Part shown: in pieces, positions 13,611-57,489 of the stretch
How positions within the stretch are numbered: the first letter of the stretch is position 1
Layout: each line of letters opens with the position of its first letter
From: a virus
IMG/VR virus record: IMGVR_UViG_3300050821_017219
Coordinates: 1 to 64,000 of that record
Direction: 5' to 3' (one strand)
Length of the DNA: 64,000 nucleotides
Made by a program: the position numbers and the translations under genes
Notes under the pieces: model-generated
Database searches by the model: none
Told to the model about the DNA's origin: nothing
The model's input: the letters and a program-made list of their open reading frames with translations, nothing else

Positions 13611-13655
13611 TTCTGCGAATTTGAAACAAATCCGCAAACATTCAAGGAATCAACG

Positions 13656-14249
13656 ATGAAATCGACACTTCTTGTTCGCCGTGCGCGTGTTTCGATCTCC
13701 TACGAGCCGCAGTCGGGGGCGACCGGCGCAACAGGATCGCCGGGGGGTGCAACCGGAGCAACCGGCGCAGCGGGCTCACCTGGAGGAGCAACAGGCGCAA
13801 CGGGAGCCGCAGGCGGAGGGGCGATCGTCAACTTCGCCTCCTTCTTCGCGCTCATGCCCGGCGACAACGCGTCGACCATCGCCGTAGGCGCGGCGATTCA
13901 GTTTCCGCAAACCGGACCGACGGCCGGGCTCTCCCCGCCGACGCGCGCTTCAGCATCGACGTTTACTCTCCCAAACGTCGGCGTCTACGAAGTCACGTGG
14001 CAGGCGAGCATCACCGAAGCCGGACAGCTGCAGCTCGCGCTCGCTGGGGTCGGTCTGGCCAGCACAGTCGTTGGTCGAGCAACGGGCACCAACCAGATCT
14101 TCGGATCGACCATCATCAACAACCTCGTCGCTGGTCAAGTTCTGTCGGTCATCAATCCGGCCGGCAACTCAACGGCGTTGACGATGACGGTCATTGCCGG
14201 AGGAACGCATTCGGTTTCGGCGACGCTGAGCATCAAACAGCTGTCGTAA
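13656..14249 (+). CDS. Collagen-like fibre protein 1 with BclA-C-like (TNF/C1q-like) head
   Basis: STLLVRRARV N-motif; GAT triplets; FTLPNVGVYEVTWQ...GQLQLAL...ATLSIKQL resembles exosporium BclA C-terminal domain. Confidence 0.75.
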   Translation: MKSTLLVRRARVSISYEPQSGATGATGSPGGATGATGAAGSPGGATGATGAAGGGAIVNFASFFALMPGDNASTIAVGAAIQFPQTGPTAGLSPPTRASASTFTLPNVGVYEVTWQASITEAGQLQLALAGVGLASTVVGRATGTNQIFGSTIINNLVAGQVLSVINPAGNSTALTMTVIAGGTHSVSATLSIKQLS

Positions 14250-14481
14250 ATTCAAAGACGTATCTAAAACGCCGATGAATTTGTCGAGACAAACGCAGCT
14301 TCTCGTCGATCAGGCGAACACCATCAAGGCCGCCTACGACGATCTACTGCAACAAATCAGACGAGATGGCCGCTTCGACTTCAGCGCGGCAGTAAAAGCC
14401 GCCGACGTGGAGATGCGCTGGAAGATAGCGCGACTCGCCGCACTAGAGGCTATCGCCAAAGACGCCGAGATAGAGGTTTGA

Positions 14482-17121
14482 TTGAGTGCCAACGGCCCCC
14501 CCGGTAATCCCCAGCTCGATGTGCTCCGTGCTCGCGTAGCCATCGGCGGCATCGGCGGGGGTGCGTCCGGCCCTACCGGTGCGACGGGTCCGGCCGGTTC
14601 ACCAGGGGGAGCGACGGGCGCAACTGGTGCCCCCGGAGCAACAGGCGCAGGCGCAACCGGAGCAGTCGGGGCTACAGGTGCGATCGGCGCTACTGGCGCA
14701 GTCGGGGCAACTGGCGCTACCGGCTCTGGCGCTACCGGGGCAACCGGAGCAACAGGTTCCGCCCCTCTCTTTTCGATCACAAATCCAGCGTTTGCGGGAG
14801 GCGCCAGCGCCGCTGCCACACCGACGCAGAACGTCGCCGCTATCAATGCGACAATCGCGGCAGCAAATGCCGCGGGGGGCACGGTCTATGTCCCGAACGA
14901 TCCGGCCGGGGCATACCGCATCAACGCGCCGATCTCGATCCCTCATGACACGGTGATCGTCGGGGAAGCCTCGTCGATCGGTACGCCCAAAAGCGTATTG
15001 CAAGCGGCCGTTGCTATGCCGGCCATGCTGCAAGTTGAAACGCAGCAAAATCAAACCCTGCCGACCCCTGCGCAGATCCGCGCGATCACGCTCGACCAAA
15101 ATCTTCTCGCGATCTGGGGCATCGATCGCCGAAGTGACCTCTCGAGCCGATATAGCAGTGTGCAGTGTCGTAACGCGCCGCTCGATGGCTTCCACTCGAG
15201 CTCACATTCGGTGGCCGTCGCGATTTCGGCTATCGTTCCGGGCGGTGGCGCTGGCGCAGGACAGCTCACGCTCTCGCAACCGGATGTCAGCTACGCGGGC
15301 GACATCTCAAGTTCGGGTACGCACTACGCCATCAAGTTTGTGGTCGCTGGAGGGTACGGCGTCGGGCAATTCGTACTGTCGCAAGACGGGGGCGTAACCT
15401 TCGCTACGGCGCGGCAGACAGTCCAGGCCGTCTCCAATCTCATTGTGACACAGGCTGCTCAGTATACCCACGCGATGGGGTTGCAGGCAACCTTTGCCAA
15501 TATCGTATACGGTCTCAACTGGACTTATACATGGACGGCCACGGGTGGGCTTGAGCCCAACACGAGCAATACGACAATCAACGCGCTCGTGCGCTTCGAC
15601 GATTGCTCTGTCGTCAATCTCGGTGTGGCGTATTGCTCGGACGCCGGTACGCGCGCGATCTACAGCAATCTTTTGGCTCAGGCCTTCACGACTGGTGGGA
15701 CCGTCACCTCGACGCCAGGCTCGCAGCTCTTGGTCGGCACCGGGACGGCGTTTCTCACAGGCTCGCAACCGAATTTGGCGCCTCGACCCGGCGATACTAT
15801 CTGGCTGAATAACAGCCCGGCGGACCCTCGGATCGCCAACTTTCAGATCCTCGCCGTCATGGACGACTTCACGGTGGTCGTATCCGTGGGCGATGCCCCC
15901 AACTTGCCCGCCCTCGCGGGTGTGCACTTCGCGCTCGTCGTCGGAGCCGGCTGCTACGTCACCGATGGCGGCGACAACATCGGAGAGGCTTGGCACGACG
16001 GCTACATGGAGACGGTCGCCAATGGTTGGCGGCTAAGCGGCGTCTCGCCCATGAGCCTCTATAGCCCATTTCTCGAAGCCGACTCCGCCGGTATTGGCGT
16101 GGGGATTGGCGGCCAGATGAGCGCGGGTGCTCAAACTATCGTACAAGCGCCCTACATCAAACTATCAACGCAAGGCCGCCAGTATTACGTCCAGCAGGCT
16201 TCCCTCTGCGAAATCATCGACCCCGAGGGGCCGTTCGGGCCCGATGGGCTAGGGGGCTCGGGCTTCGCGCGCGTCACGTTCAACGGCCAGCCGTACGCCT
16301 ATAACTTCGTCCAGAATGACTTTCAACCCAAAGCCAATTTGGTTTTGCAGGCAAGCGTCGTCTCGGTCACTGTGCCCAATCAAGTCCTCGTCGGCCCTCC
16401 CCTCGATGTGTTCCAGGGGGGCGCCACGGCGTACACGGTGCTTGTCCCGAATGCGGATTACATCGGGACGGCCAACACGCCGCTTTTGCCCGCGCCGAGC
16501 GTGCCCGGACAGCTTTGGCTCATCGAAAATCAGTTGAACAGCGCTCACGTCTTCGAGTTCTTCGATAACGGGACATTCGGGGCATCTCACCTGAACCTGG
16601 CGTGTCAGTCGCTTTTTATGTTTCCGGGCGAGCGGATGCTACTCGTCGCCTCGGAGGTCGCCGGCTCTGTTGCCTCGTGGCAGATCATGGGGGACGTCCA
16701 GCGGAGCTACCGCGGCCAGAGCGGCGAGGGAAGCAAGTGCGGGCCGGGCTCGGGCGTGGCGATCGGCGTCGGAACGATCAACGTGCAGCTCTGGGACGTC
16801 GTGTTTGTTCCAACGAGAGGTTTTGCCGCAAAGCTCAACGTCAGCGTCAAGGACGCGGCATCGGCCTCGTTTGCGTGTTGGCTCGGCTGCACGGTGGGCG
16901 TCGACGGCACGGGGGCCATCATCGGGCAATTCGTACCGACGACGCAGGCGCAAGGCGCCTTCGGCAGCAACGCGGGGCTGCCCCCCGTCGGTTGGGCAAT
17001 GCAATTCGCTATCGTAGTAATCGGGGGCAGTAACCAAGTGGCTGCGCAGGTGACAACGACAGGCGGCATCACGGCAAAAGCGCTTTCCCAGAGCGAGCAG
17101 ATCGCTGCATACCCAATTTAG
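14482..17121 (+). CDS. Collagen-like fibre/spike protein 2 with pectate-lyase-like beta-helix
   Basis: DVLRARV N-motif; GAT repeats; NVAAINATIAAANAAGGTVYVP...AYRI..PISIP..TVIVGE beta-helix cap motif; TTG start. Confidence 0.75.
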   Translation: MSANGPPGNPQLDVLRARVAIGGIGGGASGPTGATGPAGSPGGATGATGAPGATGAGATGAVGATGAIGATGAVGATGATGSGATGATGATGSAPLFSITNPAFAGGASAAATPTQNVAAINATIAAANAAGGTVYVPNDPAGAYRINAPISIPHDTVIVGEASSIGTPKSVLQAAVAMPAMLQVETQQNQTLPTPAQIRAITLDQNLLAIWGIDRRSDLSSRYSSVQCRNAPLDGFHSSSHSVAVAISAIVPGGGAGAGQLTLSQPDVSYAGDISSSGTHYAIKFVVAGGYGVGQFVLSQDGGVTFATARQTVQAVSNLIVTQAAQYTHAMGLQATFANIVYGLNWTYTWTATGGLEPNTSNTTINALVRFDDCSVVNLGVAYCSDAGTRAIYSNLLAQAFTTGGTVTSTPGSQLLVGTGTAFLTGSQPNLAPRPGDTIWLNNSPADPRIANFQILAVMDDFTVVVSVGDAPNLPALAGVHFALVVGAGCYVTDGGDNIGEAWHDGYMETVANGWRLSGVSPMSLYSPFLEADSAGIGVGIGGQMSAGAQTIVQAPYIKLSTQGRQYYVQQASLCEIIDPEGPFGPDGLGGSGFARVTFNGQPYAYNFVQNDFQPKANLVLQASVVSVTVPNQVLVGPPLDVFQGGATAYTVLVPNADYIGTANTPLLPAPSVPGQLWLIENQLNSAHVFEFFDNGTFGASHLNLACQSLFMFPGERMLLVASEVAGSVASWQIMGDVQRSYRGQSGEGSKCGPGSGVAIGVGTINVQLWDVVFVPTRGFAAKLNVSVKDAASASFACWLGCTVGVDGTGAIIGQFVPTTQAQGAFGSNAGLPPVGWAMQFAIVVIGGSNQVAAQVTTTGGITAKALSQSEQIAAYPI

Positions 17122-17148
17122 CGTCTGAATTCCGAAAGCAAAATTCCA

Positions 17149-18042
17149 ATGGCAGTCGACCATCCCTTCGTTCGTCGTTCCCGCGTCGCCAACGTCGCTC
17201 TCACCGGCGGAAGTGGCGGCGGTGCCACCGGCGCTTCAGGTAGCAATGGAGCGACTGGCGCTACCGGCTCAAACGGAGCGACAGGTGCGACCGGCGCGGG
17301 GGTAACCGGCGCGACGGGCAGTGCTGGCGCTACAGGATCTCTCGGCGCAACCGGCGCGACCGGAAGTGGAGCAACAGGCGCTACCGGAAGCCAAGGCGCG
17401 ACGGGACCTGGCGCAGGGGCGACCGGGGCTACGGGAGCGACCGGACCGGCCGGCGTTGGCGCTACAGGTGCGACTGGAGCGGGCGTTACGGGAGCCACCG
17501 GAGCCGTAGGCGCAACTGGGTCGGCGGGGGTCGGAGCAACCGGTGCAACTGGCGCAGGAACGGTCGGTGCGACTGGCGCAACGGGCGCGGGCGGCGCAAC
17601 AGGCGCTGCTGGTGCAACGGGGGCGGGCGGGGCCACCGGAGCTACGGGGGCGACACCCGCCGCGACGCTCGTTCAGACCACAAGTGTTTCTAGTGGAAAT
17701 ACGGGGCTAACAACGACCGGCCAAACTCTCACTTCTGTAGGGATTACAATAGCGACTGGGCAGCGCGTCTTTATTTGGGCCTCTTGCTCATCGCAAATCA
17801 CTGCGGGCGTCACATCGACGGCTACCTACAAAATCACGCGAAATGGAACTCAACTTCAGGCGGCGGTGTTCCATAACCAGACCAATGCGGCTACGAGCAG
17901 CACTCCGGTATGTATGTTCGCTTTTGATACTGCGGGCGTAGCCGGTGTGCAGACCTACGCCTTTGTCGGAACGACGAGCGGTGTCAACGGTGACATCACC
18001 GCGATCGCACCGGAGATGATATTCTTCATCACTACTGTCTAA
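17149..18042 (+). CDS. Collagen-like fibre protein 3
   Basis: PFVRRSRV N-motif; roughly 145 aa of GAT repeats; beta-sandwich C-terminus. Confidence 0.8.
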
Positions 18043-18077
18043 TCGGCTCTAGAAGGTTTCAAGAAAGCAAATACAAA

Positions 18078-19820
18078 ATGGGTCGTTCAACGCTACTTGT
18101 CCGTCGATCTCGCATCAGCGTCGATCCCTCGCCGTCGGGTGGAGGCGGAGGGACGGGGGCCACCGGATCTCCCGGCGCGACCGGGGCCAACGGCGCTACG
18201 GGTGCGACCGGCGCCGGTGTCACGGGAGCGACGGGCAGCGCGGGGGCGACCGGTTCTGCGGGAGCCACGGGGGCTACGGGAGCCGGAGTGACCGGTGCAA
18301 CCGGCTCGCAAGGTGCGACCGGACCGGGCGGTGGTGCGACCGGCGCTACAGGCGCGACCGGAAGTAATGGTGCGACGGGCGCTACCGGAGCCGGTGTTAC
18401 TGGCGCTACCGGCGCCGCTGGAGCTACTGGCGCGGCGGGCGCTGGAGCAACCGGAGCGACGGGGGCAGGTACAGCGGGAGCTACGGGAGCAACTGGGGCA
18501 GGCGGGGGCGGTGCCCTCACGGCGTTCGGAGCGGACCTCGTTGGGTCGGCTGCGACAACGCAGTGGATCGCATCGATCAGCGGGCAAGGTGGTACTGGCG
18601 GGACCGTTCCCATCGGAGGGTCCGCCAATACGGTGATGCAGTTCCGGGCCGGCGCCGTTCAATCTTCGGCGGGGCTTTCGCAGGCACAGCAGACGAGTGA
18701 CATCCCGACGGTCGACCTCGTCTTCGGGTCGCAGCGAGGATTCGCGACTGCAACAGGAACCAACCGCACCGCGGGCAGCATCGTCGCTGCGATTCCAGCG
18801 GTCACCAACGCTGGTACGGCTGCAGGGGCCTTCCGTGTGACGGAATCAGGCGCTGGAGTCATCGCCATCGCGCCTGGAGGCTTCGGGCAAGCGCCAACGT
18901 CTGGCGCTGCTGCTGCCGCAATTTGGTTGAACCTCACTCGCGGTACAGAGTCCGGTACGAACTACTCCATCGCAGCAAACTCTATCAATACGACCGTAAA
19001 TGGAGTCTCTACCGTTCGTCTCGACGTCGCTGGTTTCGATCAGCTTTCCATGACGTCGGTTGGTGCGCAGTTCTTCCGCACCAACGGAACGGTCGCATTC
19101 GGCGGTGGGACCGGCGGAATTATCTCGATCGACAGCTCAGCGATCGTCCCACCGACGGCACTTCCGACGACTGCGGTGCTGGTTTACGCCAATACCGGCT
19201 CCCCAGGCAGCCTAGGGCTGATGGCGACGGGGATCCAGTTCAACAAGACGCTCGGGACGGTTACCGCAACGATCGGATCGGACGGACCCACGACGGATGT
19301 CATACCAAACGGCATCCTAGTGCAAGCGGCATCGGCCTTTGCTGCTGCAGTCACCAACACCACTGGTGGGTCGGTGATTATCGCTGCTGGGGCCGCCTCT
19401 GCGCTCTCCAACGGAACGCAGATCTCACTGTCCGGCGGGGTCACCGGTGGTGGTGTACCCACCAATCTCGGGACGGTTCAGTTCCGAACGTCGGGCGTCG
19501 GCGGCAACTTGTCGGACCCATCGACGCTGTCGGTACCGTTCGCGTGGATCACGGCGCCGTCGTTCTCCATCGCGTCGGGTGGAACGATTACCCTCTCGGG
19601 CGCGCAGGCGGCATCGCCGGTGCTGACGATGACTGGGACGACGGCCGGAACGACGATCGCGTTTCCGAACGTTCCTGGCTTCTGGCTAGTCGACTTCAGC
19701 ACCGTAACAGGTCCGCTCACCTTCACGAGCGGATCTGGAACGACGGCCGCGTTGACGGCAGTGGCGGGAGCCATCGTGACCGTCGTCACCATGGGTGGAA
19801 ACAGAATCCGCATCAAGTAA
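18078..19820 (+). CDS. Collagen-like fibre protein 4
   Basis: [11 protein letters not shown]-motif; GAT repeats; long Gly/Thr/Ala-rich beta C-terminal region. Confidence 0.8.
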
Positions 19821-19841
19821 GACGTTTGCAATCGACGACGT

Positions 19842-20219
19842 CTATGGCGACGCCGTCTTCGACGAGGCCGCATTCGACGGCTTCGTCTCCGGCGCATCCA
19901 AGACGGCCTGGGTGAACGGGAGCAGCCGTACGGCGATGGTGGGGGGGAAGAACGCCTTCGGCTGCTCCGCGATGCTCCGAAGCGTCGCGTAGTCTTCGTC
20001 TTCCAACGCCAACACGTCGCCGGCTTTGACGGCATCGAAGGCATCGATGACATGGCTCCACCGTACGAGCCTCGTGAAGGCACCTTGCGTCGCGCGCTCG
20101 TCGTTCAGCCAGATGTTGAGCGCGTACTTCTTGAACGAGACCGCCTCGGGTCGCGCGTCGGGCGCGATCTCGCGGTGGGGGGTGACGATGATGTCGGCGG
20201 GGATGGTGATGTAACGCAT
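19842..20219 (-). CDS. Hypothetical protein (fibre chaperone-like candidate)
   Basis: 125-aa ORF with AAGG SD, convergent with the fibre genes. Confidence 0.5.
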   Translation of the reverse strand: MRYITIPADIIVTPHREIAPDARPEAVSFKKYALNIWLNDERATQGAFTRLVRWSHVIDAFDAVKAGDVLALEDEDYATLRSIAEQPKAFFPPTIAVRLLPFTQAVLDAPETKPSNAASSKTASP

Positions 20220-20264
20220 TAGTTTCGCCTTTCGATTGTTGAAATCGTTTTGAATTTACAAAAT

Positions 20265-20831
20265 TTATAGAATCCACGCGCGGCCAAAACATTCAGACTC
20301 GCCGCGTAGTGTGACGACTCTGCCTTGTTGGTTTGTCCAACTGTTCAACGCAGCTTCGGTCAAAGTTTGCGGATGGCCTTCGTGTGGCGGCGTGTCTATC
20401 CACTCGAAGATCTTCAGCTGCTTCGCGCAGGCCTTCGCGTTGGCGATGATCTTCGCTGGGTCGTCGGTATGTTGGAGGCAATTGTAGATGAGCGCAACGT
20501 CGAAAACAGACGCCTGGACGATGTCTTCGCCGCGAGCTTGCAGGGAGACGATATTGGCCGAACGATATCTGTCGTAAACCCATTGTGGGTAGACGCCAGG
20601 ATCGACAACGAGGCAATGCCTCACATTCTCGAATTTCAATAAGACACTGCAAGGACCACCGCCGATGTCGATGAAGGATTGATTGTTGCCGTTGAAACTC
20701 CAGGCCGTTCGCCAAGTGGGGTAGGATAGAAATCCCATCTCTCGAAGGTAGAGAAGCTGCTTCGTCTCTTCGTTGTAGCTGTTACAGCAGTTACCCCAGA
20801 AGCGAGATTCGAGATCATCATGCGAATCCAT
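20265..20831 (-). CDS. Class I SAM-dependent methyltransferase
   Basis: IDIGGGP motif I; FDVALIYNCLQHTDDP; start refined to ATG 20831. Confidence 0.8.
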   Translation of the reverse strand: MDSHDDLESRFWGNCCNSYNEETKQLLYLREMGFLSYPTWRTAWSFNGNNQSFIDIGGGPCSVLLKFENVRHCLVVDPGVYPQWVYDRYRSANIVSLQARGEDIVQASVFDVALIYNCLQHTDDPAKIIANAKACAKQLKIFEWIDTPPHEGHPQTLTEAALNSWTNQQGRVVTLRGESECFGRAWIL

Positions 20832-20833
20832 GT

Positions 20834-21718
20834 TTAGCCTCGTTTGAAGATTAGACCGTTTTGGGTCAACCAACCGAGATGGTAGCCACCGCGCATCCAA
20901 TCGAGCCATTCGTCGGTAGCGTCAGGGTCTAGCCAATAGCTAGCGTGGTGTAGCTTCTCCACCCAGTAGGCTTTCGGTTGGCAGTTGATATGGCCTTCGC
21001 CGCCTTGACCGGGGCGAGCCGCGCTGAAGTAGACCGTCGACGGATTGTTTGCAGCGATAAATTCGACGTAGGCGTCGGCTTTTTCTGCGGGTATATGCTC
21101 GCCGACTTCGAGACTCAGTACGACGCCTGGTTGCGGACACCAACTGCAAAAGCCCGGCTTGTCATCAGCGATGATATCGACTCGTTTGAGATGATCGCCT
21201 TCGACCAATCGCGAGTCGTTGTCTACGCCAAATGCGATCAAGCCGGCGTCGCGCATCGCTTTGACGTAGATGCCTGGGCCGCATCCGACGTCTAAGATTG
21301 TTGCGTCTTTACGATGAAGACGAAACCAGTCGGCGATGCGTATTGCCTGCGGCGTCTCTTCGCGCGTAATTCTATCGAAGTCACATTTTTCGACTTGATT
21401 CATCTGTCTTTTCTTTCGCTGAGACTTTCGTGTCAATTCGGCCGATTTTTGGCGATGCTCGACGCAGTAGTAGAAGCCTTCCGACGAATTATTGCAGCGA
21501 CTCCAACCGCAGATTTTAGTTTCGTCGTCTGTTAGCGGCGTCGCGCAAGCGTCGATGGCTTCTTGTAGCCATCTCTGACTGGCGATGCGCGTTTCGTTTT
21601 CGACGGCGGCGATGTTGGCGTGGCTGAGCAGACCGAGGCGAACGGCGAGGCGCTGCATCGACAGATTGGCCTTGTGTCTAGCCTTTCGTAAGTCGAAGCC
21701 TGTCAACCGCGACGCCAT
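20834..21718 (-). CDS. XRE-HTH plus Cys-rich segment fused to class I methyltransferase
   Basis: LRKARHKANLS...AVEN HTH; CGWSRC..YYCVEH; LDVGCGPG; SLEVGEHIP; PGQGGEGHINCQ. Confidence 0.8.
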   Translation of the reverse strand: MASRLTGFDLRKARHKANLSMQRLAVRLGLLSHANIAAVENETRIASQRWLQEAIDACATPLTDDETKICGWSRCNNSSEGFYYCVEHRQKSAELTRKSQRKKRQMNQVEKCDFDRITREETPQAIRIADWFRLHRKDATILDVGCGPGIYVKAMRDAGLIAFGVDNDSRLVEGDHLKRVDIIADDKPGFCSWCPQPGVVLSLEVGEHIPAEKADAYVEFIAANNPSTVYFSAARPGQGGEGHINCQPKAYWVEKLHHASYWLDPDATDEWLDWMRGGYHLGWLTQNGLIFKRG

Positions 21719-21720
21719 CG

Positions 21721-22896
21721 CTACGGTAACGTCAGTGTTTCCAGATTGCGCATCTCGTAGTAACCTTCAAACCATCTCGCGTAGAGACGATCAAAATAAC
21801 GCTCGTATTTCACCGCGATTGCATCGAGCGAATACAACGACGACGCCTTCAGTTTGATGTTGGCGCGATCAGCTGACGTCAACTTCTGCGCGCGCAACGC
21901 TGCTTCGACAAATTCTCGGTGACTCGCACATCTCCAGCCTTCTTCAACTGTCTGCGTAAAGGCGCCATGGTCTGTCGTGATCGCTGGTGATCCGGCGAGT
22001 TGCGCTTCGACGGCCGTTCCGCCGAAGGGCTCACGAAAGTCGGTGGGGCAGAAGCAAGCGATGGCCCCGCTCATCAACCGCGCGCGCTCGGCGGTATCGG
22101 CGCGGCCGAAGAAGAAGACGTGGTCGTTACGCGAATCGTCGAGAAACTCTTGCCCGACGCCGCCTTGACCGGCGATGATGAGTTTTGCGCCGATGTCGCG
22201 GCAGACGTCGACGGCTACGTTCCATCCTTTGTCAACGATGATACGACCTAAAAAAAGATAATAGTCGCTACCGACGCCTTCGATGAATTCGTTCGCGTCG
22301 TCTGAGATTGGTTTGACGACAAAGTCTTCTAAATCCCAGTAATTCTCACAGACGATCGTGTCGTTATCTGATACCTTGTGACCGGCGGCGCCCATCATCC
22401 ATTCGCGATGCGCATGCGACTCAAAGACACGGTAACGACTGAAGGTACCGTAATACCCTACCCCCGCCTCAACGAAGAAAGGCCCCGTTGCGATGCCAGT
22501 GTGACTGCCAGGGAAAGCCATTGCGATTGGCGCTTGGCAGTTGCCGGACCATGAGCAGATGAAGTCACCCTTGGCGACGCGTAGCTTCAACGCTTCGATG
22601 CAGCGATCGTTGAAGAGCCGCCAGTAAGGCTCATTGGCGTCCCAGCGGAGATCATACAATTTCTGCGGATCGTGTTTACCAAACCAACTTGCGCGTTCAG
22701 CTTCGGAAAGAATATCAACGCATTCGATATCGACGCCGACGTCGGCGCCTTCGTTGGAGTAGAGGATTACTTCATGGCCGCGCGGCGCAAGCATCCCAGC
22801 GAGCTTTAGGATCTTCTGGCTGTAGGCGCAACAATTGAACTCTTTCGTGATTGTCGTATGCGGTAGGCCAAGCAAATGTAGACAGTGCGTTTTCAT
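21721..22896 (-). CDS. GT-B glycosyltransferase (GT4-like)
   Basis: HLLGLPHT N-terminus; LFLGRI...KG; EPFGGTAVEA (E-X7-E); start refined to ATG 22896. Confidence 0.88.
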   Translation of the reverse strand: MKTHCLHLLGLPHTTITKEFNCCAYSQKILKLAGMLAPRGHEVILYSNEGADVGVDIECVDILSEAERASWFGKHDPQKLYDLRWDANEPYWRLFNDRCIEALKLRVAKGDFICSWSGNCQAPIAMAFPGSHTGIATGPFFVEAGVGYYGTFSRYRVFESHAHREWMMGAAGHKVSDNDTIVCENYWDLEDFVVKPISDDANEFIEGVGSDYYLFLGRIIVDKGWNVAVDVCRDIGAKLIIAGQGGVGQEFLDDSRNDHVFFFGRADTAERARLMSGAIACFCPTDFREPFGGTAVEAQLAGSPAITTDHGAFTQTVEEGWRCASHREFVEAALRAQKLTSADRANIKLKASSLYSLDAIAVKYERYFDRLYARWFEGYYEMRNLETLTLP

Positions 22897-22949
22897 TGAC
22901 GACAAGCCTACCGCCGCGTCTGCTTCTCCGCAAGCCGAAAGCGGACGCG

Positions 22950-23366
22950 TCAGTGCAGCAGCTTCAGCAGCGCGTGGATCAAAACGGTTGCAAGCGCAAC
23001 CAAGATGATCGTCGCTGGCTTCTCCGTCACCCGCGCGAGCCACGGCGGCGTCGACGGCCGTTTGGACCGCAGCGGCGTGACGATCGGCAGGGCAACCGGG
23101 GGGATGTTGAACCTTCCGGTCGCCTCCCCTTGCGCTCGCGAGATGGCTTGCTCAAGTTCACGGATGCGTTCGTCGATGGCGTCGTGACGCCTCTCGTCAG
23201 CACTGAGATGCTCGTTGTGACGTTTCTCGGCGAAAGCGCCGTGCTCGGACAGCTGACGGTTGAGCGCACGAAGGTTGATGCCGTCGAAGGTGTCGCGGCG
23301 GCGCTCTTCGAGTAGCTCTCGGATCTGCTCCAAGACCAGGTCGTTGCTGCTCGATCGGTCAGGCAT
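22950..23366 (-). CDS. Coiled-coil protein with C-terminal TM (holin-like candidate)
   Basis: Hydrophobic C-terminus ATIILVALATVLIHALL; near the lysin gene. Confidence 0.45.
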   Translation of the reverse strand: MPDRSSSNDLVLEQIRELLEERRRDTFDGINLRALNRQLSEHGAFAEKRHNEHLSADERRHDAIDERIRELEQAISRAQGEATGRFNIPPVALPIVTPLRSKRPSTPPWLARVTEKPATIILVALATVLIHALLKLLH

Positions 23367-23438
23367 CGAGATGAAATTGTAGCATAATCGGCTACGGATG
23401 CTTAGATTCATCCGCAACCGTGACGTTGCAGTTGGTCG

Positions 23439-23636
23439 ATGCCTCCGAAGTTTCCGTCTGAACCCCCGACGAACCCCGACCTCCGCCGCTTCGCCTGCCC
23501 GGAATGCGCCGGTGTCGGCAGCATTGCATCCGTTGACGAACGCGGCGCCGCTTGCCGACGTGGCTGCGACGCTTGCTTCGGCAAGAAGTGGCTCGACCGG
23601 CAGGGGTACGATCGATGGAGGAAAAACCGTGGATAG
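23439..23636 (+). CDS. Small zinc-finger protein
   Basis: CPECAGVG...CDACFG. Confidence 0.45.
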   Translation: MPPKFPSEPPTNPDLRRFACPECAGVGSIASVDERGAACRRGCDACFGKKWLDRQGYDRWRKNRG

Positions 23637-23844
23637 TTACAGTTTCTTCTTTCGTCGCTGCGTTATCGACTCAGCCTCAAACGTCGGTGGTGGATCAGTA
23701 TCTATCTTCGTCAGAATCCACTGGTAGCGCGTGGTCGCCGCCAACAACGCGAGAGACGCTGCATCTTTCGGCGTAGCACTTCGCGTGTTTGCCCATTCGA
23801 CGCAGAGCTTCAACACCAACGCTTCGGCTTCAAGCAACTGGCGT

Positions 23845-24492
23845 CTACGCATTCACAATAATAGCAGATTTGATCGACCATGTCGGCAGATCGCCAAAGT
23901 TGTCCGGCTGGATGAAGTCGTGGTCGACCTGAACACCGTCGAGCCAAACATCGAGGGGGTAGCCTTGGACGTTGCAGAAGCCTCGCTGCTCCGGCGTAGG
24001 CACGTTCGACCCTGACTTCCAATAGCGCGTCATCTTCAGCGCGTGAAACCACTGCGCCGCCGTCAGAATCGACTGGAAGCCGACGTAGACGCCCGGCTGA
24101 AACCCTGCGGCGGCAACGGCGTCAAACCAGGCGTTGGCGTAGACGATGACGTCGAGACTTGAGCATTCCAGCGAGACGCCTTCGATGTCACACCAGAGAG
24201 TCGTTCCAGCGGCGAAGCCGGCGCGTTGGGCGAAGTTGGCGAGGTTCATCCCGTCGAGCGCGCCCATACCGGCGTTGGGCTTCCAGGGAGGGTAGCGCAC
24301 ATGCCCCGCGCCCATGATCGCCAAACCGGCGTCGATAATGACGTTGAATTCGGCGGGTTGCACGTCGCGCGCGTAGCGAATGACGAAATCGACGCCGTCT
24401 GATTTGAGTTTTTGACAAATCTCCGCCGTCAAGACGGTGTTGCAGTCGATGCCCTTCGCGCCGGGTCGGGCCAATGTTGCGATGGCTGTCAT
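23845..24492 (-). CDS. DUF1906 / Rv2525c-like glycoside hydrolase (putative endolysin)
   Basis: KGIDC...GVDFVIRY...LWCDIEG...AGFQPGVYVG...VDHD TIM-barrel pattern. Confidence 0.75.
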   Translation of the reverse strand: MTAIATLARPGAKGIDCNTVLTAEICQKLKSDGVDFVIRYARDVQPAEFNVIIDAGLAIMGAGHVRYPPWKPNAGMGALDGMNLANFAQRAGFAAGTTLWCDIEGVSLECSSLDVIVYANAWFDAVAAAGFQPGVYVGFQSILTAAQWFHALKMTRYWKSGSNVPTPEQRGFCNVQGYPLDVWLDGVQVDHDFIQPDNFGDLPTWSIKSAIIVNA

Positions 24493-24721
24493 GACACCTT
24501 CTCGAATGACACCTTCTCGAAGAGCCCGAGCGCGATCTCAATGTCTTCGACGAGGGTCGCTGGGGTATTCGTCAAGTCAGTTTCGTCGAACCAAAACCAC
24601 TGCGGGTCATCATTGACCCAAACGCAGACGCCGCACTTCTCATCCCAGAGAAACAAACCGTGGCGCCGCTCGCCAGGCGGAAATTTGGCCGTCAGAAGAC
24701 GAAGAAACTCGTAGGCGTTTG

Positions 24722-24955
24722 TCATTTCCCCAACCAATGGCTGATCCAGCCAGCCGCAATGAGAACTCCACCCGTCACCTCGACGGTCTTCGCGAGGCGC
24801 GCCGCCTTCTCGTCGGCGACGCATTGAATTTTGTCAGCATCTGTCACTTGCGGATTGTTGAGGCAGGGCAAGAACGCACCCTTGCGCAGCGTCAGAAGCA
24901 GACCGGTTCCACCAACAACGGCGCCACCGATGAGCAGAGCCGTCGACACGCGCAT
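24722..24955 (-). CDS. Small two-TM membrane protein
   Basis: Two Gly-rich hydrophobic segments. Confidence 0.55.
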   Translation of the reverse strand: MRVSTALLIGGAVVGGTGLLLTLRKGAFLPCLNNPQVTDADKIQCVADEKAARLAKTVEVTGGVLIAAGWISHWLGK

Positions 24956-25452
24956 CAGACAGGCTTGCCGGCGTTCGCCGCGATGTTCGTCGCGAGGTTG
25001 ACCAGGATAAGCGCGCCCAATCCGATGCCCGCCGTCGCGAAGCCGACGTTGCGATTGGCGGGGGAGACCAGACCGACGACGAAGCCGCCGAGCGCCGTCG
25101 CACCGACGCCGACGCTGCCCCCACCGACTGCTCCGCCGAGGATGTCGACGGGCTTCGCCATCGCCCCTCCGAACGCGCCGAGACCCCCGCCGACCGCGGC
25201 GCCGAGACCGAGGTAGCCGAGGGCGCCACCGATGGCGCTGTTGCTGGTAGGGTTGGCGTAGGCGAGACCGCGGTCGCGACGACGAGAAAGTCGGTGAGAC
25301 ATGTTTCGCTTCTTTTTCTGCTGCTTTGACGCTGCTTTGCGTTGAATGCGGTAGGCGATGGCTGCGGCTTGCGCGGGTGGGTAGCCGTCGCGGCGAAGGG
25401 TCGCGATGTTGCGGCTTCGGGTAGCGTCGCTTGAGCCTCGGAGGAGAGGCAT
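24955..25452 (-). CDS. Basic N-domain, NP motif and Gly-rich TM region; putative virion membrane protein
   Basis: MPLLRG...SRNIATLRRDGYP..QAAAIAY resembles a common small phage domain; RRRDRGLAYANP; three hydrophobic segments. Confidence 0.6.
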   Translation of the reverse strand: MPLLRGSSDATRSRNIATLRRDGYPPAQAAAIAYRIQRKAASKQQKKKRNMSHRLSRRRDRGLAYANPTSNSAIGGALGYLGLGAAVGGGLGAFGGAMAKPVDILGGAVGGGSVGVGATALGGFVVGLVSPANRNVGFATAGIGLGALILVNLATNIAANAGKPV

Positions 25453-25533
25453 GCGTCTACTCTAGCAGCGACGTCGATTCGGCGGTAGAGTCAAGTAGTA
25501 GACATGCGCCGTCAGACGAGACGTTGCTGAGAC

Positions 25534-26271
25534 ATGCTTGACTTCCCCGCCGCCGCCGCTGCACTCTGGGCGATCACCGCTGCGACGGGGGTAAAGCCCG
25601 AGCATCTGTTGCCGCCGTTGTTTTTGGAGAGCGGATTCGATCCGAGCATCCCGAATGCGGCAGGGCAGCCATTTTATGGGATCAACCAGGCATCGACGCA
25701 GCTGATCTCCACCTATGCCGGAGTCGATCCGCAGACGTATCTGACGTGGCCGGCGTCACAGCAGCTCTCGACGGTCGTCAAGGGAATGATCGCAGACATC
25801 GTCCACCGGTACGGTCCGATCCGAAGTGCGACCAGAATGTATCAAGCGAATTTCCTGCCAGCGACGCTACCGACCGCGCGACAGCTTTCGGATGTTCTGA
25901 CGTCGCCGCCGTCACCCTTCTACAATGCCAACTCGGGACTCGACGCGAACCACGACGGCGCCATTACCCTCGGCGACCTCGCGGTAAAGATGACGCAGAT
26001 GGCGCATCGCCCACAGGTGCAGCAGGCGATTCGCGACACCTACGCGGCGCGTGACGGCGCAACCGCTTCGGCGTCAGCTGCGGCATCGCCGACGGACATC
26101 AACGAGATCGTCTACGGCGACGACTTCAGCTTCATGCAGCAAAATCCGACGCTACGAAACGCGTTGGTCGTTGCTGGCATCCTCGCGGTTGGCGGCGGTG
26201 TCATCTACGCCATCGAGACGCGGCGGTTGGATCGATTTATTCTACCGAAGCGAAACCGACGTCGCCGTTGA
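25534..26271 (+). CDS. Lysozyme-like/lytic transglycosylase with C-terminal membrane anchor
   Basis: LFLESGFDP catalytic Glu, YGINQ, LDANHDGAIT; TM followed by RRRR tail. Confidence 0.7.
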   Translation: MLDFPAAAAALWAITAATGVKPEHLLPPLFLESGFDPSIPNAAGQPFYGINQASTQLISTYAGVDPQTYLTWPASQQLSTVVKGMIADIVHRYGPIRSATRMYQANFLPATLPTARQLSDVLTSPPSPFYNANSGLDANHDGAITLGDLAVKMTQMAHRPQVQQAIRDTYAARDGATASASAAASPTDINEIVYGDDFSFMQQNPTLRNALVVAGILAVGGGVIYAIETRRLDRFILPKRNRRRR

Positions 26272-26304
26272 ATCGATTCATCTAAAAGAATCTGAGAATC
26301 ACAA

Positions 26305-27858
26305 ATGGCCGGAACACTCATCGTTCGTCGAGCTCGCGTCGTCACCAACGTCGGCTCGGGTAGCGGCAACGGCGCAACCGGCGCAACTGGACCGGGCGGA
26401 GGCGCGACTGGACCGACGGGGGCGACAGGTGCAACCGGGGCCGTCGGCGCATCAGGTGCCACGGGTGCTTTCGGTGTCACCGGCGCTACGGGGCCGACCG
26501 CACGCACGCCGCTTGGCGCAGTCAGATTCATCGATCCATCCAACTCATCTGGCCTGGCGTCAGACAGCAACAACGGCGCAACCAACGTAACGCCAATTCT
26601 GACGACAGCGCATCTCAATAACCTTCTGTTCTTCAAATCGCTGACGGCCAATACGACGATTACGTATATGAGCGACGATCTTAGCGGCGTTGGGTTGGAT
26701 TATTCAACGATGGCGTTGGGCAATTTCAACTTGACGTTTCAGATGACGCCGGTCGTTACGCATACGGGTGGAACGCTCAACGCCGGCACGGTCGCGATCA
26801 ATCCGTTGGCGGCGTCTGGCGGTCAACGCCAAGTCGTTCATACTTCCGACGTTGTGACGTTCAATCCGTTTGTCTTTACAGGATTGGGCGGAGCGTCGGC
26901 GCATCCACAACGACTCGTCGCGACGAGTGGAGGCGACGTCAATACTGGCGCGTGGATCGTCTCAGCAACAACCCCAGCTTCGCCGTCGATGTCTCGGTCA
27001 ATCACGCCTGGTGGAACCAACGGCAATCTAACGATTGGCGACACCTACAAGATTCAGCGTGGGGGGATCATCAACGTCACGCAAGGCCAACCTCCCACAC
27101 AAGACGCCGGGCCGTCTGGAGGTGGCGGTGGTCTAGTGTTCTTCAACGACGCCGCCTTTGGCCTAACGAGCTGGGGCATCGGAGGTATACAATACGCCCG
27201 ATGTAGCTTTGAGAATTCACTTGTCGTTGCTGCGGGTCTTACCGATTGCTTCGTCGGCGCTGGTATTATCGAGATTCTACCGATTGGATCTATCTCGATG
27301 ACAGCCGGTGTTCTTGTGACGACTATCTTCGATTTACTTCATTCGTCCATTAGTTTTGCTGACGATACGTACATCACCGGATCAGCCTTTATTCTTTCGG
27401 GCAACGTCTATGGTAGCGTAACGGCTCTGCCAGGTAGTGGTAACGGGATTCAAATCCAAGATATGACGAACCCTACCGGCGCGCTCATCGTTTTGACCGC
27501 CATCCCGTTTGCGAATCAGACGGGGTCGCCGTCGAACCCGCTCATCTGGGGAAACGGTAACGTCGGACCGGGTATCACGATCGGACCGGGAGCGTGTATC
27601 ACGGTGGCTGACGAGGTTGGGGTTGTACCGAGCGTCACCGGAACCGGCGGAGACTTCGCATTCATCGCCGAAAATAGCGGACCGCTTGTGACGGTAGCGC
27701 GCGCTTGGAACAACGCGACGGGCGCCTACACGGAAGCGGGGGGCGTTGCGACCAGAACGACGACCTGGGCGCATTTCGCTGCTAGTATCTCCCCCGGTGG
27801 CGGTTTTCTCTTTCAAGCGCATAACGTAGCGACAGCAGCGTCAATCATTGCGGTCTGA
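26305..27858 (+). CDS. Collagen-like fibre protein 5
   Basis: TLIVRRARV N-motif; GAT repeats; FIDPSN...ASDSNNG..P spike-like motif. Confidence 0.75.
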   Translation: MAGTLIVRRARVVTNVGSGSGNGATGATGPGGGATGPTGATGATGAVGASGATGAFGVTGATGPTARTPLGAVRFIDPSNSSGLASDSNNGATNVTPILTTAHLNNLLFFKSLTANTTITYMSDDLSGVGLDYSTMALGNFNLTFQMTPVVTHTGGTLNAGTVAINPLAASGGQRQVVHTSDVVTFNPFVFTGLGGASAHPQRLVATSGGDVNTGAWIVSATTPASPSMSRSITPGGTNGNLTIGDTYKIQRGGIINVTQGQPPTQDAGPSGGGGGLVFFNDAAFGLTSWGIGGIQYARCSFENSLVVAAGLTDCFVGAGIIEILPIGSISMTAGVLVTTIFDLLHSSISFADDTYITGSAFILSGNVYGSVTALPGSGNGIQIQDMTNPTGALIVLTAIPFANQTGSPSNPLIWGNGNVGPGITIGPGACITVADEVGVVPSVTGTGGDFAFIAENSGPLVTVARAWNNATGAYTEAGGVATRTTTWAHFAASISPGGGFLFQAHNVATAASIIAV

Positions 27859-27872
27859 AAAGGAGACTAAAA

Positions 27873-28280
27873 ATGTTCAAGCAAAGCTATCCAATACCGG
27901 CGCCTACCTACTTCTCGGCATCGTCGGCTCAACCGTTCAATCTTGTCCTAAACCTAGCGACCGGGCCTAATCCGATTCCAGTCGCAGCGACACAAGCTCG
28001 GATGCTCATTATCAAAGCTAAGTTCATATTCTTATGCCCTACCCCAGCCAATTCTGGCGCGGACGGCTGGGACGATTTGGTGTTTACGGTAATATCCGGT
28101 TCAACGCTGAGCGTCTCAACGCACAACACCGGCGGCGGTGGCGGATTCTCTAATGCAATAGCAGCTGCTTCGATCAATGCTAACGGAGACTTGCAGATCA
28201 GTCTCGGGTCGGCAGGTGGCGTAACCCCGTATGATATTTGGTTTGAAGTCGACGAGATGACACTATATGGCGATACTTGA
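27873..28280 (+). CDS. Beta-rich putative virion protein
   Basis: AGGAG SD; follows fibre 5. Confidence 0.55.
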   Translation: MFKQSYPIPAPTYFSASSAQPFNLVLNLATGPNPIPVAATQARMLIIKAKFIFLCPTPANSGADGWDDLVFTVISGSTLSVSTHNTGGGGGFSNAIAAASINANGDLQISLGSAGGVTPYDIWFEVDEMTLYGDT

Positions 28281-57467: not shown

Positions 57468-57489
57468 CGCATGCAACTTCGAGTCTGAG

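What the first reader, a model, noticed from the sequence alone, without database searches (positions are those of the whole stretch)
13656..27858. Five collagen-like fibres share one N-terminal address tag but carry different heads: a modular 'hairy coat' system
Seen: ORFs 13656 (STLLVRRARV), 14482 (LDVLRARV), 17149 (PFVRRSRV), 18078 ([10 protein letters not shown]) and 26305 (TLIVRRARV) all begin with the same short motif or a close variant. Each then has a Gly linker, interrupted Gly-Ala-Thr triplets and an unrelated C-terminal domain (BclA-like, beta-helix, beta-sandwich and others). Collagen blocks such as [16 protein letters not shown] and [11 protein letters not shown] recur between genes. 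Known: Bacillus exosporium BclA-type proteins use a short N-terminal motif to dock collagen filaments on a basal layer. Inference: the motif is a common virion docking or processing tag that lets one particle display interchangeable adhesins, with the shared repeats allowing head swapping by recombination.
Basis: partly seen in the sequence, partly recalled or inferred. Interest (0 to 1): 0.85.

Follow-up and report, generated by a model that had tools for sequence, protein, structure and literature searches.

The report
Swappable viral fibres with short address tags
An uncultured 78-kb soil virus encodes five collagen-stalked host-binding fibres whose first 12-25 residues are short conserved tags. 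Related viruses mix these tags freely with different fibre heads, so they are most likely plug-in peptides that fix interchangeable fibres to the virus particle, a principle already shown in some tailed phages.

Summary
The five collagen-like ORFs are real and are the only collagen ORFs in the complete 78,382-bp virus genome. Four start with h-h-V-R-R-[A/S]-R-[V/I] ("class C"). The fifth (14482) does not carry a variant of this motif. It has a separately conserved tag, P-G-N-P-Q-[L/V]-D-[A/V]-L-R ("class A").

All five have the order tag, Gly hinge, interrupted G-A-T stalk, then a head. The heads are mutually unrelated: one BclA_C-like, two beta-helix depolymerase-like, two unknown.

The virus belongs to a large uncharacterised soil clade. 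In relatives the same heads carry other tags (classes A, C, D, helical), and several fibres within one genome share one tag. Codons in the tag vary synonymously, so selection acts on the peptide.

My best reading (about 0.6) is that the tags are docking peptides for trimeric, probably glycosylated, receptor-binding fibres. This resembles the proven N-terminal "conserved peptide" of Klebsiella-phage RBP2 and the BclA targeting motif.

Three things remain unshown:
- the docking partner;
- the virion architecture;
- the presence of these proteins in virions.

Head swapping through the shared repeats is not supported for today's genome, because exact nucleotide matches between the genes are at most 17 nt. 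This scan has noted similar constant-foot collagen fibres in giant viruses on other DNA. I class it as a new variant of a known kind.

The parts
13656..14249 (+). Fibre 1 (197 aa): class C tag, short G-A-T/G-S-P stalk, BclA_C-like head
   Evidence: ORF. Pfam BclA_C E 1.5e-7, 31.8 bits, below the 38-bit cut-off. PHROG 'collagen like minor tail' E 6.5e-13. Homotrimer model score 0.94 against best control 0.00.
13668..13691 (+). Class C tag core L-L-V-R-R-A-R-V (residues 5-12)
   Evidence: Identical in relatives P0002-P0004.
14275..14481 (+). Small helical ORF (68 aa). Its stop overlaps the TTG start of fibre 2. Possible assembly factor; function unknown.
   Evidence: No Pfam or PHROG hit.
14482..17121 (+). 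Fibre 2 (879 aa): class A tag, Gly hinge, collagen stalk, large head that begins with a pectate-lyase-like beta-helix
   Evidence: Pfam PF12708 E 4.4e-7, 30.3 bits against a 27-bit cut-off. No relative of solved structure by sequence.
14497..14550 (+). Class A tag P-P-G-N-P-Q-L-D-V-L-R-A-R-V-A-I-G-G (residues 6-23)
   Evidence: Matches the tags of four G007 fibres and of P0246/247/248/260/273/279/298. This also supports the TTG start.
17149..18042 (+). Fibre 3 (297 aa): class C tag, Gly hinge, about 150-aa collagen stalk, small head of about 115 aa and unknown fold
   Evidence: Pfam Collagen 29.7 bits against 27.2. Relative P0121 has the same tag and head but a much shorter stalk.
17164..17187 (+). 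Class C tag core P-F-V-R-R-S-R-V (residues 6-13)
18078..19820 (+). Fibre 4 (580 aa): class C tag and a stalk about 85% identical to fibre 3 in protein, then an unrelated 406-aa head of unknown family
   Evidence: No Pfam family. No close relative in IMG/VR.
18093..18116 (+). Class C tag core L-L-V-R-R-S-R-I (residues 6-13)
   Evidence: Nearly the same tag heads P0006, which lies on a contig that also holds a capsid-like homologue.
20265..20909 (-). Methyltransferase, probable partner of the glycosyltransferase (fibre glycan modification is inferred)
   Evidence: Weak Pfam methyltransferase hits. Homologues in G001, G007 and G009 only. Fused to the glycosyltransferase in G001.
20834..21718 (-). 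HTH plus methyltransferase protein
   Evidence: Homologue in G009.
21721..23043 (-). GT1-family glycosyltransferase, candidate O-glycosylase of the Thr-rich stalks (inferred)
   Evidence: Pfam Glycos_transf_1 E 2.2e-11. Present in all four collagen-bearing genomes and absent from the two collagen-free relatives.
25534..26271 (+). Lytic-transglycosylase-like protein with a C-terminal membrane helix, directly upstream of fibre 5 (context)
   Evidence: PHROG 196 'baseplate hub' C-terminal region E 7.7e-8. Syntenic homologue next to the G009 class C fibre.
26305..27858 (+). Fibre 5 (517 aa): class C tag, Gly/Ser hinge, short stalk, right-handed beta-helix head like tailspikes and polysaccharide depolymerases
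   Evidence: AlphaFold2 model pLDDT 88.5, pTM 0.84, with residues 1-62 disordered. Foldseek matches to tailspikes and depolymerases at E about 1e-4. VIA-align Z 9-13.5 to beta-helix glycosidases, lyases and tailspikes.
26317..26340 (+). Class C tag core L-I-V-R-R-A-R-V (residues 5-12)
27873..28280 (+). 135-aa beta-rich ORF directly downstream of fibre 5. Unknown; possible accessory or chaperone.
   Evidence: No family hit. No homologue in the relatives compared.

Best explanation
The first 12-25 residues of each fibre are a docking (anchor) peptide. Behind it come a flexible poly-Gly hinge, a collagen-like triple-helical stalk rich in Thr (probably O-glycosylated by the neighbouring GT1 and methyltransferase genes) and a trimeric head that binds or degrades a host surface polymer.

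The tag plugs the fibre into a socket on a virion protein. Fibres with the same tag use the same kind of socket. In this genome four different heads (class C tag) would share one kind of site, and the 879-aa fibre (class A tag) would use a second.

Across the clade, tags and heads are independent modules, so a virus can change host-binding heads without changing its attachment interface.

Shown here:
- the anatomy of the five genes;
- the tag classes;
- peptide-level conservation of the tags;
- independent assortment of tags and heads;
- the tailspike-like fold of one head;
- model support for a trimer.

Inferred:
- docking on the virion;
- the number of sites;
- glycosylation.
For: 1. Anatomy. 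All five genes have the order tag, Gly hinge, G-A-T stalk and head, and the heads are unrelated.

2. Peptide-level selection. Every conserved codon of V-R-R-x-R-V differs synonymously among the four genes: GTT/GTC, CGC/CGT, CGT/CGA, CGT/CGC. The residues just after the motif are not conserved.

3. Conservation in relatives.
- A profile of the five N-termini searched against 1.84 billion proteins gave only four hits. Among them were P0121 (same tag, head of fibre 3) and P0124 (same tag, new head).
- P0002-4, P0006 and P0251 also carry the tag.

4. Independent assortment.
- The BclA-like head (at least 60% identical) carries class C, class D or the W-D-L tag.
- The beta-helix head of fibre 5 (35-54% identical) carries class A (at least 8 proteins), class C (at least 5), class D (2) or helical tags (13), with or without collagen.

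5. Sharing of one tag within a genome is general in the clade:
- G001 and L076: three or four fibres with W-D-L tags;
- G007: four with class A and two with M-P-I-P-Y;
- G009: two with K-P-x-D-R-G-R-V-K-R-L-E-A-L;
- L071: two with class D.

6. The heads look like receptor-binding proteins.
- Fibre 5 is a beta-helix with Z 9-13.5 to tailspikes, lyases and glycosidases.
- Fibre 2 matches Pfam PF12708.

7. Trimer model. Three copies of fibre 1 gave a homotrimer score of 0.94 against a best control of 0.00.
- In calibration this mark was reached by 20 of 30 proteins solved as pairs and by 1 of 23 solved as single chains.
- The runs agree in at least 86% of contacts, and partner pLDDT is at least 84.
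- I used my own alignment and three copies, unlike the calibration. A BclA trimer structure exists, so the pass may reflect likeness to it.
- Confident contacts start at residues 18-20, just after the tag.
- The tag is also unstructured in the fibre 5 monomer model.

8. Experimental precedent.
- Deleting the 29-residue N-terminal conserved peptide of Klebsiella-phage KP32 RBP2 abolishes incorporation into the virion.
- Fusing that peptide to a foreign enzyme domain is enough for incorporation (PMC13352976; PMC6872550).
- BclA and BclB share an N-terminal motif needed for incorporation into the exosporium (PMC4674009, citing Thompson and Stewart 2008 and Tan and Turnbough 2010).

9. Glycosylation. 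The GT1 and methyltransferase genes occur in all four collagen-bearing genomes, are missing from both collagen-free relatives, and are fused in G001.
Against: - No docking partner was identified.
- There is no proteomic or structural evidence that these proteins are in virions.
- The virion type is unknown. Pfam and PHROGs find no terminase, portal, HK97 capsid or tail, and the capsid-like model is poor.
- The tag is very short and basic and could serve another purpose.
- The link between the glycosyltransferase and collagen rests on six genomes (Fisher p about 0.07).
- The tags show no sequence similarity to any experimentally studied docking peptide.
Confidence: 0.6

Rival explanations
1. 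The tag is a propeptide or assembly signal. A chaperone or the virus-encoded protease recognises it, and it is removed or used only transiently. The mature fibre would then be anchored by something else, such as the hinge or stalk base.
For: BclA loses its first 19 residues on attachment (Tan and Turnbough 2010, as cited in PMC4674009). Gly-rich hinges follow every tag. The tag is disordered in the models.
Against: No cleavage consensus is shared by the hinges. Several unrelated tag classes would each need recognition. This rival is partly compatible with docking, as in BclA.
Confidence: 0.13
2. The shared N-termini are only a footprint of gene duplication. A tag-plus-stalk unit was copied and new heads were attached, and the tag has no address function of its own.
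For: Fibres 3 and 4 are adjacent. They share the tag, the stalk and even an upstream GAAAGCAAA stretch.
Against: The copies are old: 32 of 53 identical codons differ synonymously. Even so, the tag is invariant at V-R-R-x-R. The tag persists in relatives whose capsid-like protein is only about 64% identical. The same tag sits on non-homologous stalks and heads, and other tag classes behave in the same way.
Confidence: 0.12
3. The tag nucleates or sets the register of the collagen triple helix, acting as an N-terminal trimerisation cap.
For: Bacterial collagens need a trimerisation domain. Several tag classes look like short amphipathic helices.
Against: The same tags head proteins with no collagen at all: G009 18828 and 21590, P0253, P0254 and P0266. 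In the trimer model, confident contacts begin after the tag. Trimeric heads of the BclA_C and beta-helix types normally drive trimerisation.
Confidence: 0.07
4. The tag is a leader that recruits the glycosyltransferase and methyltransferases to the stalk, like a leader peptide for a modifying enzyme.
For: The GT1 and methyltransferase genes sit among the fibre genes and co-occur with collagen fibres.
Against: One glycosyltransferase would have to recognise several unrelated tag classes within a single genome (G007, G009). Fibres without collagen also carry tags.
Confidence: 0.05
5. The conservation acts on the nucleotides, as a translation-initiation or regulatory RNA element, and not on the peptide.
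For: AT-rich stretches precede the start codons in a genome of 60% G+C.
Against: Third codon positions vary freely while the amino acids are kept. Relatives keep the peptide. Promoter and terminator scans are at chance level.
Confidence: 0.03

Closest known systems
N-terminal 'conserved peptide' of the secondary receptor-binding protein (RBP2) of Klebsiella podophages KP32, K11 and KP34, which docks on the T4gp10-like branching domain of RBP1 (PMC6872550, PMC13352976)
   Same: A short N-terminal peptide of about 29 residues precedes an exchangeable depolymerase-type head. It is necessary and sufficient for incorporation into the virion, and heads can be swapped behind it.
   Different: There is no sequence similarity. 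Here a poly-Gly hinge and a collagen stalk follow the tag. At least five tag classes exist in one clade, and up to four fibres share one tag. No branching domain or other partner was found, and the virus has no recognisable podovirus tail genes.
[quoted passage not shown]
   Same: Several collagen-like, Thr-rich glycoproteins share a short N-terminal motif that fixes them to a basal layer. One fibre here has a BclA_C-like head, and glycosylation genes lie nearby.
   Different: The tags here are unrelated in sequence. The setting is a virus genome and not a spore. Four of the five heads are not BclA_C. The partners ExsFA/BxpB have no counterpart here.
Adenovirus fibre tail on the penton base, and the PRD1 vertex spike P5 with its short collagen-like region (from my own knowledge, not checked here)
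   Same: A trimeric fibre with a short conserved N-terminal tail binds a capsid vertex protein, and some viruses carry two fibre types with the same tail.
   Different: A jelly-roll capsid or penton is only weakly hinted at here (Z at most 3.5). There is no sequence similarity, and the number and diversity of tags are larger.
Giant-virus collagen fibres with a constant N-terminal foot, noted earlier in this scan (e1-5588535, e1-5308180, e1-5392075)
   Same: A constant N-terminal module, a variable collagen stalk and unrelated heads, encoded by neighbouring genes. BclA-like and beta-helix collagen proteins of giant viruses are the nearest viral relatives of two heads here.
   Different: Those feet are a Tyr-rich Cys-Cys tag or a 175-residue domain in Nucleocytoviricota. 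Here the tags have 12-25 residues and no cysteine, and the virus is a 78-kb prokaryote-type virus with several tag classes.
Prophage-borne collagen-like tail-fibre proteins of E. coli O157:H7 (PMC3368898)
   Same: Collagen-like stretches in phage fibre proteins, flanked by conserved N-terminal and variable C-terminal modules.
   Different: Those proteins have large, recognisable phage tail-fibre N-terminal domains. No such domain is present here.

Membership tests
BclA-type exosporium collagen-like glycoproteins | C-terminal BclA_C domain (PF18573) | tested here: inconclusive
   Fibre 1 only: E 1.5e-7, but 31.8 bits is below the 38-bit gathering score. Its close homologues carry precomputed PF18573. 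The other four heads do not match.
BclA-type exosporium collagen-like glycoproteins | N-terminal BclA/BclB exosporium-targeting motif | tested here: not met
   The N-termini are hhVRR[AS]R[VI] or PGNPQLDVLR. Neither is Pro-rich like the B. anthracis motif as I recall it. The comparison was by eye only, and the exact consensus was not retrieved.
BclA-type exosporium collagen-like glycoproteins | Collagen-like G-X-Y region rich in Thr | tested here: met
   G-A-T and G-x-T triplet runs in all five proteins.
BclA-type exosporium collagen-like glycoproteins | Encoded by a spore-former and attached to ExsFA/BxpB | tested here: not met
   The genes lie in a complete virus record with direct terminal repeats and an integrase.
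Collagen triple-helix repeat proteins (PF01391) | Match above the Pfam gathering score | tested here: met
   Fibre 3: 29.7 bits against 27.2. The others have shorter, interrupted runs seen directly.
Phage tailspike / polysaccharide depolymerase (right-handed parallel beta-helix) | Beta-helix fold of the head | tested here: met
   Fibre 5: model pLDDT 88.5. Z 13.5 (rmsd 4.0, 254 aligned) to BT_1002 and Z 11-12 to the Sf6, CBA120, AS12 and 7-7-1 spikes. Foldseek E 9e-5 to 1e-3. Fibre 2: PF12708, 30.3 bits against 27.
Phage tailspike / polysaccharide depolymerase (right-handed parallel beta-helix) | Catalytic acid residues and enzymatic activity | not tested
   No active-site mapping or assay was done.
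Branched RBP system of Klebsiella podophages (docking peptide plus branching domain) | Short conserved N-terminal peptide before an exchangeable head | tested here: met
   This is an analogy of design, with no sequence similarity.
Branched RBP system of Klebsiella podophages (docking peptide plus branching domain) | T4gp10-like branching domain in a primary RBP that receives the peptide | tested here: inconclusive
   No such domain was reported by Pfam or PHROGs for the five fibres or the other large ORFs scanned. A distant version cannot be excluded.
Vertex fibres of jelly-roll-capsid viruses (adenovirus, PRD1 type) | Double jelly-roll capsid and penton proteins | tested here: inconclusive
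   The capsid-like 455-aa model has pLDDT 56. Only weak jelly-roll-type rows appeared, Z at most 3.5, among them PRD1 P3, HCIV-1 and P23-77.
Homotrimeric fibre | Three chains form one stalk and head | tested here: met
   Model only. Score 0.94 against best control 0.00. In calibration 20 of 30 solved pairs and 1 of 23 single chains reached the mark. Runs agree in at least 86% of contacts, and pLDDT is at least 84. The pass may reflect likeness to the solved BclA trimer.

The most novel reading that the evidence does not exclude
The tag classes form a combinatorial address code. Each class (A, B, C, D, helical) would specify a different socket on a tailless, jelly-roll-type, possibly membrane-containing virion of a large uncharacterised clade of soil bacterial viruses. 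One particle would then carry a mosaic, glycosylated coat of collagen fibres, like the fibril layers of giant viruses but on a 78-kb prokaryotic virus. The four class C fibres of this genome would compete for, or co-occupy, the same symmetry-related sites.
Probability: 0.2. Interest if true: 0.8.

Novelty: new variant of a known kind. Interest (0 to 1): 0.55.

Why it matters
Host recognition sets the host range of a virus. This system separates a very small plug (12-25 residues plus a Gly hinge) from the host-binding head, and natural relatives show many plug-and-head combinations. It offers a natural catalogue of minimal docking peptides. It also gives a handle on an abundant soil virus clade that has no cultured member and no recognisable morphogenesis genes: at least 270 capsid-like homologues lie on contigs of 60-82 kb. 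Finding the socket for each tag would identify the first structural proteins of this clade and show where on the particle the fibres sit.

Tried and rejected
I could not fetch the long metagenome contigs that carry the closest tag-bearing relatives (P0006, P0008, P0022, P0028).
- Single-protein searches of IMG/VR with the heads of fibres 4 and 5 found no relatives.
- A DNA pattern for the class C tag plus collagen in IMG/VR gave 11 matches. All were chance or out of frame.
- The capsid-like 455-aa protein gave a poor AlphaFold2 model (pLDDT 56). Foldseek found nothing at E <= 0.001. VIA-align wide gave only Z <= 3.5, jelly-roll-type rows. The ESM Atlas gave nothing useful. The virion type stays open.
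- Host: a scan of 185,579 species genomes with the capsid-like alignment found only two short MAG contigs, binned as Polyangiaceae and Chloroflexota. No prophage was found, so the host is unknown.
- GenBank phages (INPHARED) gave no match to the structural DNA, the capsid-like protein or the tag.
- PDB sequence searches with the heads of fibres 2 and 5 found nothing. The profile of BclA-like heads hit only one chain, labelled FliK.
- The 249-aa conserved structural protein has G-N-P-Q-L-D-A-V, which resembles the class A tag. Its homologues lack this stretch, so I rejected it as coincidence.
- Promoter and terminator scans of 12.5-28.6 kb were at chance level.
- I ran no tag-to-partner complex prediction. 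No candidate partner could be justified, and the single job went to the fibre 1 trimer.
- Genes shared only by the genomes with class C tags (12732, 22950 and 24955 homologues) are small membrane or coiled-coil proteins. They look like lysis genes and not sockets, so I did not pursue them.
Full report
WHAT THE WINDOW IS

The window is the first 64 kb of a complete 78,382-bp IMG/VR virus record. The record has 97-bp direct terminal repeats and a tyrosine integrase.

The replication genes are of the prokaryotic-virus type: a PolA-type polymerase, a primase-helicase, a helicase, an exonuclease, ThyX and a dNMP kinase.

Pfam and PHROGs recognise no terminase, portal, HK97-type capsid or tail protein in the 50-78 kb block.

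THE OBSERVATION

They are the only ORFs in the genome with substantial G-X-Y runs.

Four begin with the same core at residues 5-13: [24 protein letters not shown] and L-I-V-R-R-A-R-V. A strict pattern for this motif finds only these four on the coding strand of the six-frame translation.

Each conserved codon varies at its third base among the four genes. The residues just behind the motif are not conserved. The constraint is therefore on the peptide and not on the DNA.

The fifth ORF (14482, TTG start) reads M-S-A-N-G-P-P-G-N-P-Q-L-D-V-L-R-A-R-V-A-I-G-G. It aligns with a different, independently conserved N-terminus, P-G-[N/S]-x-Q-V-D-A-L-R-x-R-V-A-L-G-G. That N-terminus occurs on four fibres of relative G007 and on at least eight homologues of another head. 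It is a second tag class (A), not a variant of the first (C).

The five heads are mutually unrelated by BLASTP.

THE HEADS

- Fibre 1 is BclA_C-like. Pfam gives E 1.5e-7, below the gathering score.
- Fibre 2 starts its head with a pectate-lyase-like beta-helix (PF12708, above the cut-off).
- Fibre 5 gave a confident AlphaFold2 model (pLDDT 88.5, pTM 0.84; residues 1-62 disordered). The model is a right-handed beta-helix.
  - Foldseek matched phage tailspikes and capsule depolymerases at E about 1e-4.
  - VIA-align gave Z 9-13.5 to beta-helix glycosidases, lyases and the Sf6, CBA120, AS12 and 7-7-1 spikes.
  - The best viral match is a collagen-repeat protein of a giant virus.
- The heads of fibres 3 and 4 remain unassigned.

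These are the kinds of heads found on virus receptor-binding proteins.

A three-copy model of fibre 1 supports a homotrimer, with a score of 0.94 against a best control of 0.00.
- In calibration, 20 of 30 solved pairs and 1 of 23 single chains reached the mark.
- The runs agree in at least 86% of contacts, and pLDDT is at least 84.
- I used my own alignment and three copies, which differs from the calibration.
- A BclA trimer has been solved, so the pass may reflect likeness to it.
- Confident contacts begin at residues 18-20, just behind the tag.

RELATIVES

A 455-aa capsid-like protein (genome 64707-66074) has at least 270 homologues. They have no Pfam family or name, and many lie on contigs of 60-82 kb from soil metagenomes.

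Seven relatives are in IMG/VR. I read six of them in full. They share about 25 syntenic genes with this virus at 30-63% identity. None is in GenBank phages.

The host is unknown.

THE KEY COMPARATIVE RESULT

Tags are conserved, they fall into classes, and they assort independently of the heads.

1. Class C recurs in close relatives. It heads P0002-4, P0006, P0121, P0124 and P0251. A looser form, L-N-x-x-[A/S]-R-[V/I]-x-[V/I], occurs in G007, G009, P0010/18/28 and P0270/276/295.

2. The class C tag is rare overall. A profile of the five N-termini found only four proteins at E <= 0.001 among 1.84 billion.

3. The BclA-like head (at least 60% identical) carries different tags in different viruses:
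   - class C;
   - class D (R-L-E-R-G-x-R-I-x-x-G-G-V-Y-G);
   - the W-D-L-A-A-L-L tag of G001.

4. The beta-helix head of fibre 5 (35-54% identical, 57 homologues) also carries different tags, with or without a collagen stalk:
   - class A (at least 8);
   - class C (at least 5);
   - class D (2);
   - short helical tags such as K-P-x-D-R-x-R-V-K-R-L-E-[A/S]-L (13).

5. Within single genomes, several fibres share one tag:
   - G001 and L076: three or four;
   - G007: four with class A and two with M-P-I-P-Y;
   - G009: two;
   - L071: two.

The general architecture is a tag, then a poly-Gly hinge, then an optional collagen stalk, then the head.

RECOMBINATION

Fibres 3 and 4 share the tag and about 145 residues of stalk at about 85% protein identity. 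They then diverge abruptly at the junction with the head. This is a clear footprint of head replacement.

The DNA is not similar enough for present-day exchange.
- In a 57-residue block with 53 identical residues, 32 of the 53 identical codons differ, and nucleotide identity is 74%.
- The longest exact nucleotide match between any two fibre genes is 17 nt.
- From general knowledge, efficient homologous recombination needs roughly 20-30 nt or more of exact match.

Shuffling of tags and heads therefore happened in the clade's history, but the shared repeats in this genome are a poor substrate for it now.

GLYCOSYLATION

A GT1 glycosyltransferase and two methyltransferase-like genes lie among the fibre genes.
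- Homologues exist in all four collagen-bearing genomes.
- Both collagen-free relatives lack them.
- In G001 the two functions are fused in one ORF.

This fits O-glycosylation of the Thr-rich stalks, as in BclA. The numbers are small, so this remains an inference.

MECHANISM

The best-supported reading is that the tags are docking peptides that fix trimeric receptor-binding fibres to a virion protein.

The principle has been proven elsewhere.
- Deleting the 29-residue N-terminal conserved peptide of Klebsiella-phage RBP2 prevents virion incorporation. Fusing it to a foreign enzyme domain confers incorporation (PMC13352976, PMC6872550).
- BclA and BclB share an N-terminal motif needed for exosporium attachment (PMC4674009).

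Still missing here are the socket, proof that the fibres are in virions, and the particle type.

The rivals are a propeptide or assembly signal, mere paralogy, trimer registration, a leader for the glycosyltransferase, and a nucleotide-level signal. Each has some evidence against it and each is listed with the result that would refute it.

COMPARISON AND NOVELTY

The design, a constant short N-terminal plug with exchangeable heads, is known from tailed phages and spores. This scan has also noted it in giant-virus collagen fibres on other DNA.

Four things are new here:
- the very small, cysteine-free tags followed by Gly hinges;
- at least five tag classes combined with shared heads;
- up to four fibres per tag in one genome;
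- the setting in a large, uncharacterised virus clade.

I rate it a new variant of a known kind, with interest 0.55.

Noticed in passing
window 56652-57467 and 57406-57744: Two adjacent structural-block genes share another N-terminal motif, F-[Q/E]-I-G-G-P-A-G-P. The first continues with ...N-D-L-T-T-K-T-Y-V-D. In relative G001 their homologues, and that of 57758-58489, lie directly upstream of the collagen fibre cluster and also share an N-terminus (S-L-W-S-K-x-R-G-T...F-Q-I-G-L-G-G-P-Q-L). This may be a further tag class on fibres without collagen.
   Followed up: partly
L003:7367-7846 (genome 69367-69846, outside the window): A 159-aa ORF starts with M-P-I-P-Y and has no collagen. Its homologues in G007, G009 and G006 start the same way and do carry a collagen stalk. 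This is a tag class (B) encoded inside the structural block.
   Followed up: partly
L003:2707-4074 (genome 64707-66074) and the two genes after it: A capsid-like 455-aa protein and the next two genes (249 and 283 aa) are the most conserved genes of the clade. The 455-aa protein has at least 270 unnamed homologues on contigs of 60-82 kb, none in GenBank phages, and its fold is unresolved, with weak jelly-roll hints only.
   Followed up: partly
window 20265-23043 (minus strand); G001 13415-15190: The glycosyltransferase and a methyltransferase are separate genes here but form one fused 591-aa ORF in G001. Both are absent from the two relatives that lack collagen fibres.
   Followed up: partly
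window 17270-17440 compared with 18187-18357: The stalks of fibres 3 and 4 are 93% identical in protein over 57 residues, but 60% of the identical codons differ. This shows strong purifying selection on a repetitive stalk, including its interruptions, or selection against DNA identity between the paralogues.
   Followed up: yes
window 26305-27858; loci L015, L024, L025, L037, L038: The nearest viral structural match of the fibre 5 head is a collagen-repeat protein of Harvfovirus. BclA-like heads also occur on giant-virus MAG contigs and in bins of amoeba-associated bacteria. Fibre modules seem to be shared between this clade and giant viruses.
   Followed up: no
L087:12820-16563 and L095:11456-15967: More distant relatives (exonuclease about 31% identical) encode single giant collagen proteins of 1247 and 1503 aa with yet another N-terminal tag...L-L-x-F-L-A-S-R.
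   Followed up: no
window 14479-14484: The stop codon of the 68-aa ORF and the TTG start of fibre 2 are adjacent (TGATTG), which suggests translational coupling.
   Followed up: no
window 23845-25452 (minus strand) and 25534-26271: A probable lysis cassette sits between the fibre genes. It has an Rv2525c-like glycoside-hydrolase-like protein, small Gly-zipper and coiled-coil membrane proteins, and a lytic-transglycosylase-like protein with a C-terminal membrane helix. The order is syntenic in G007 and G009.
   Followed up: partly
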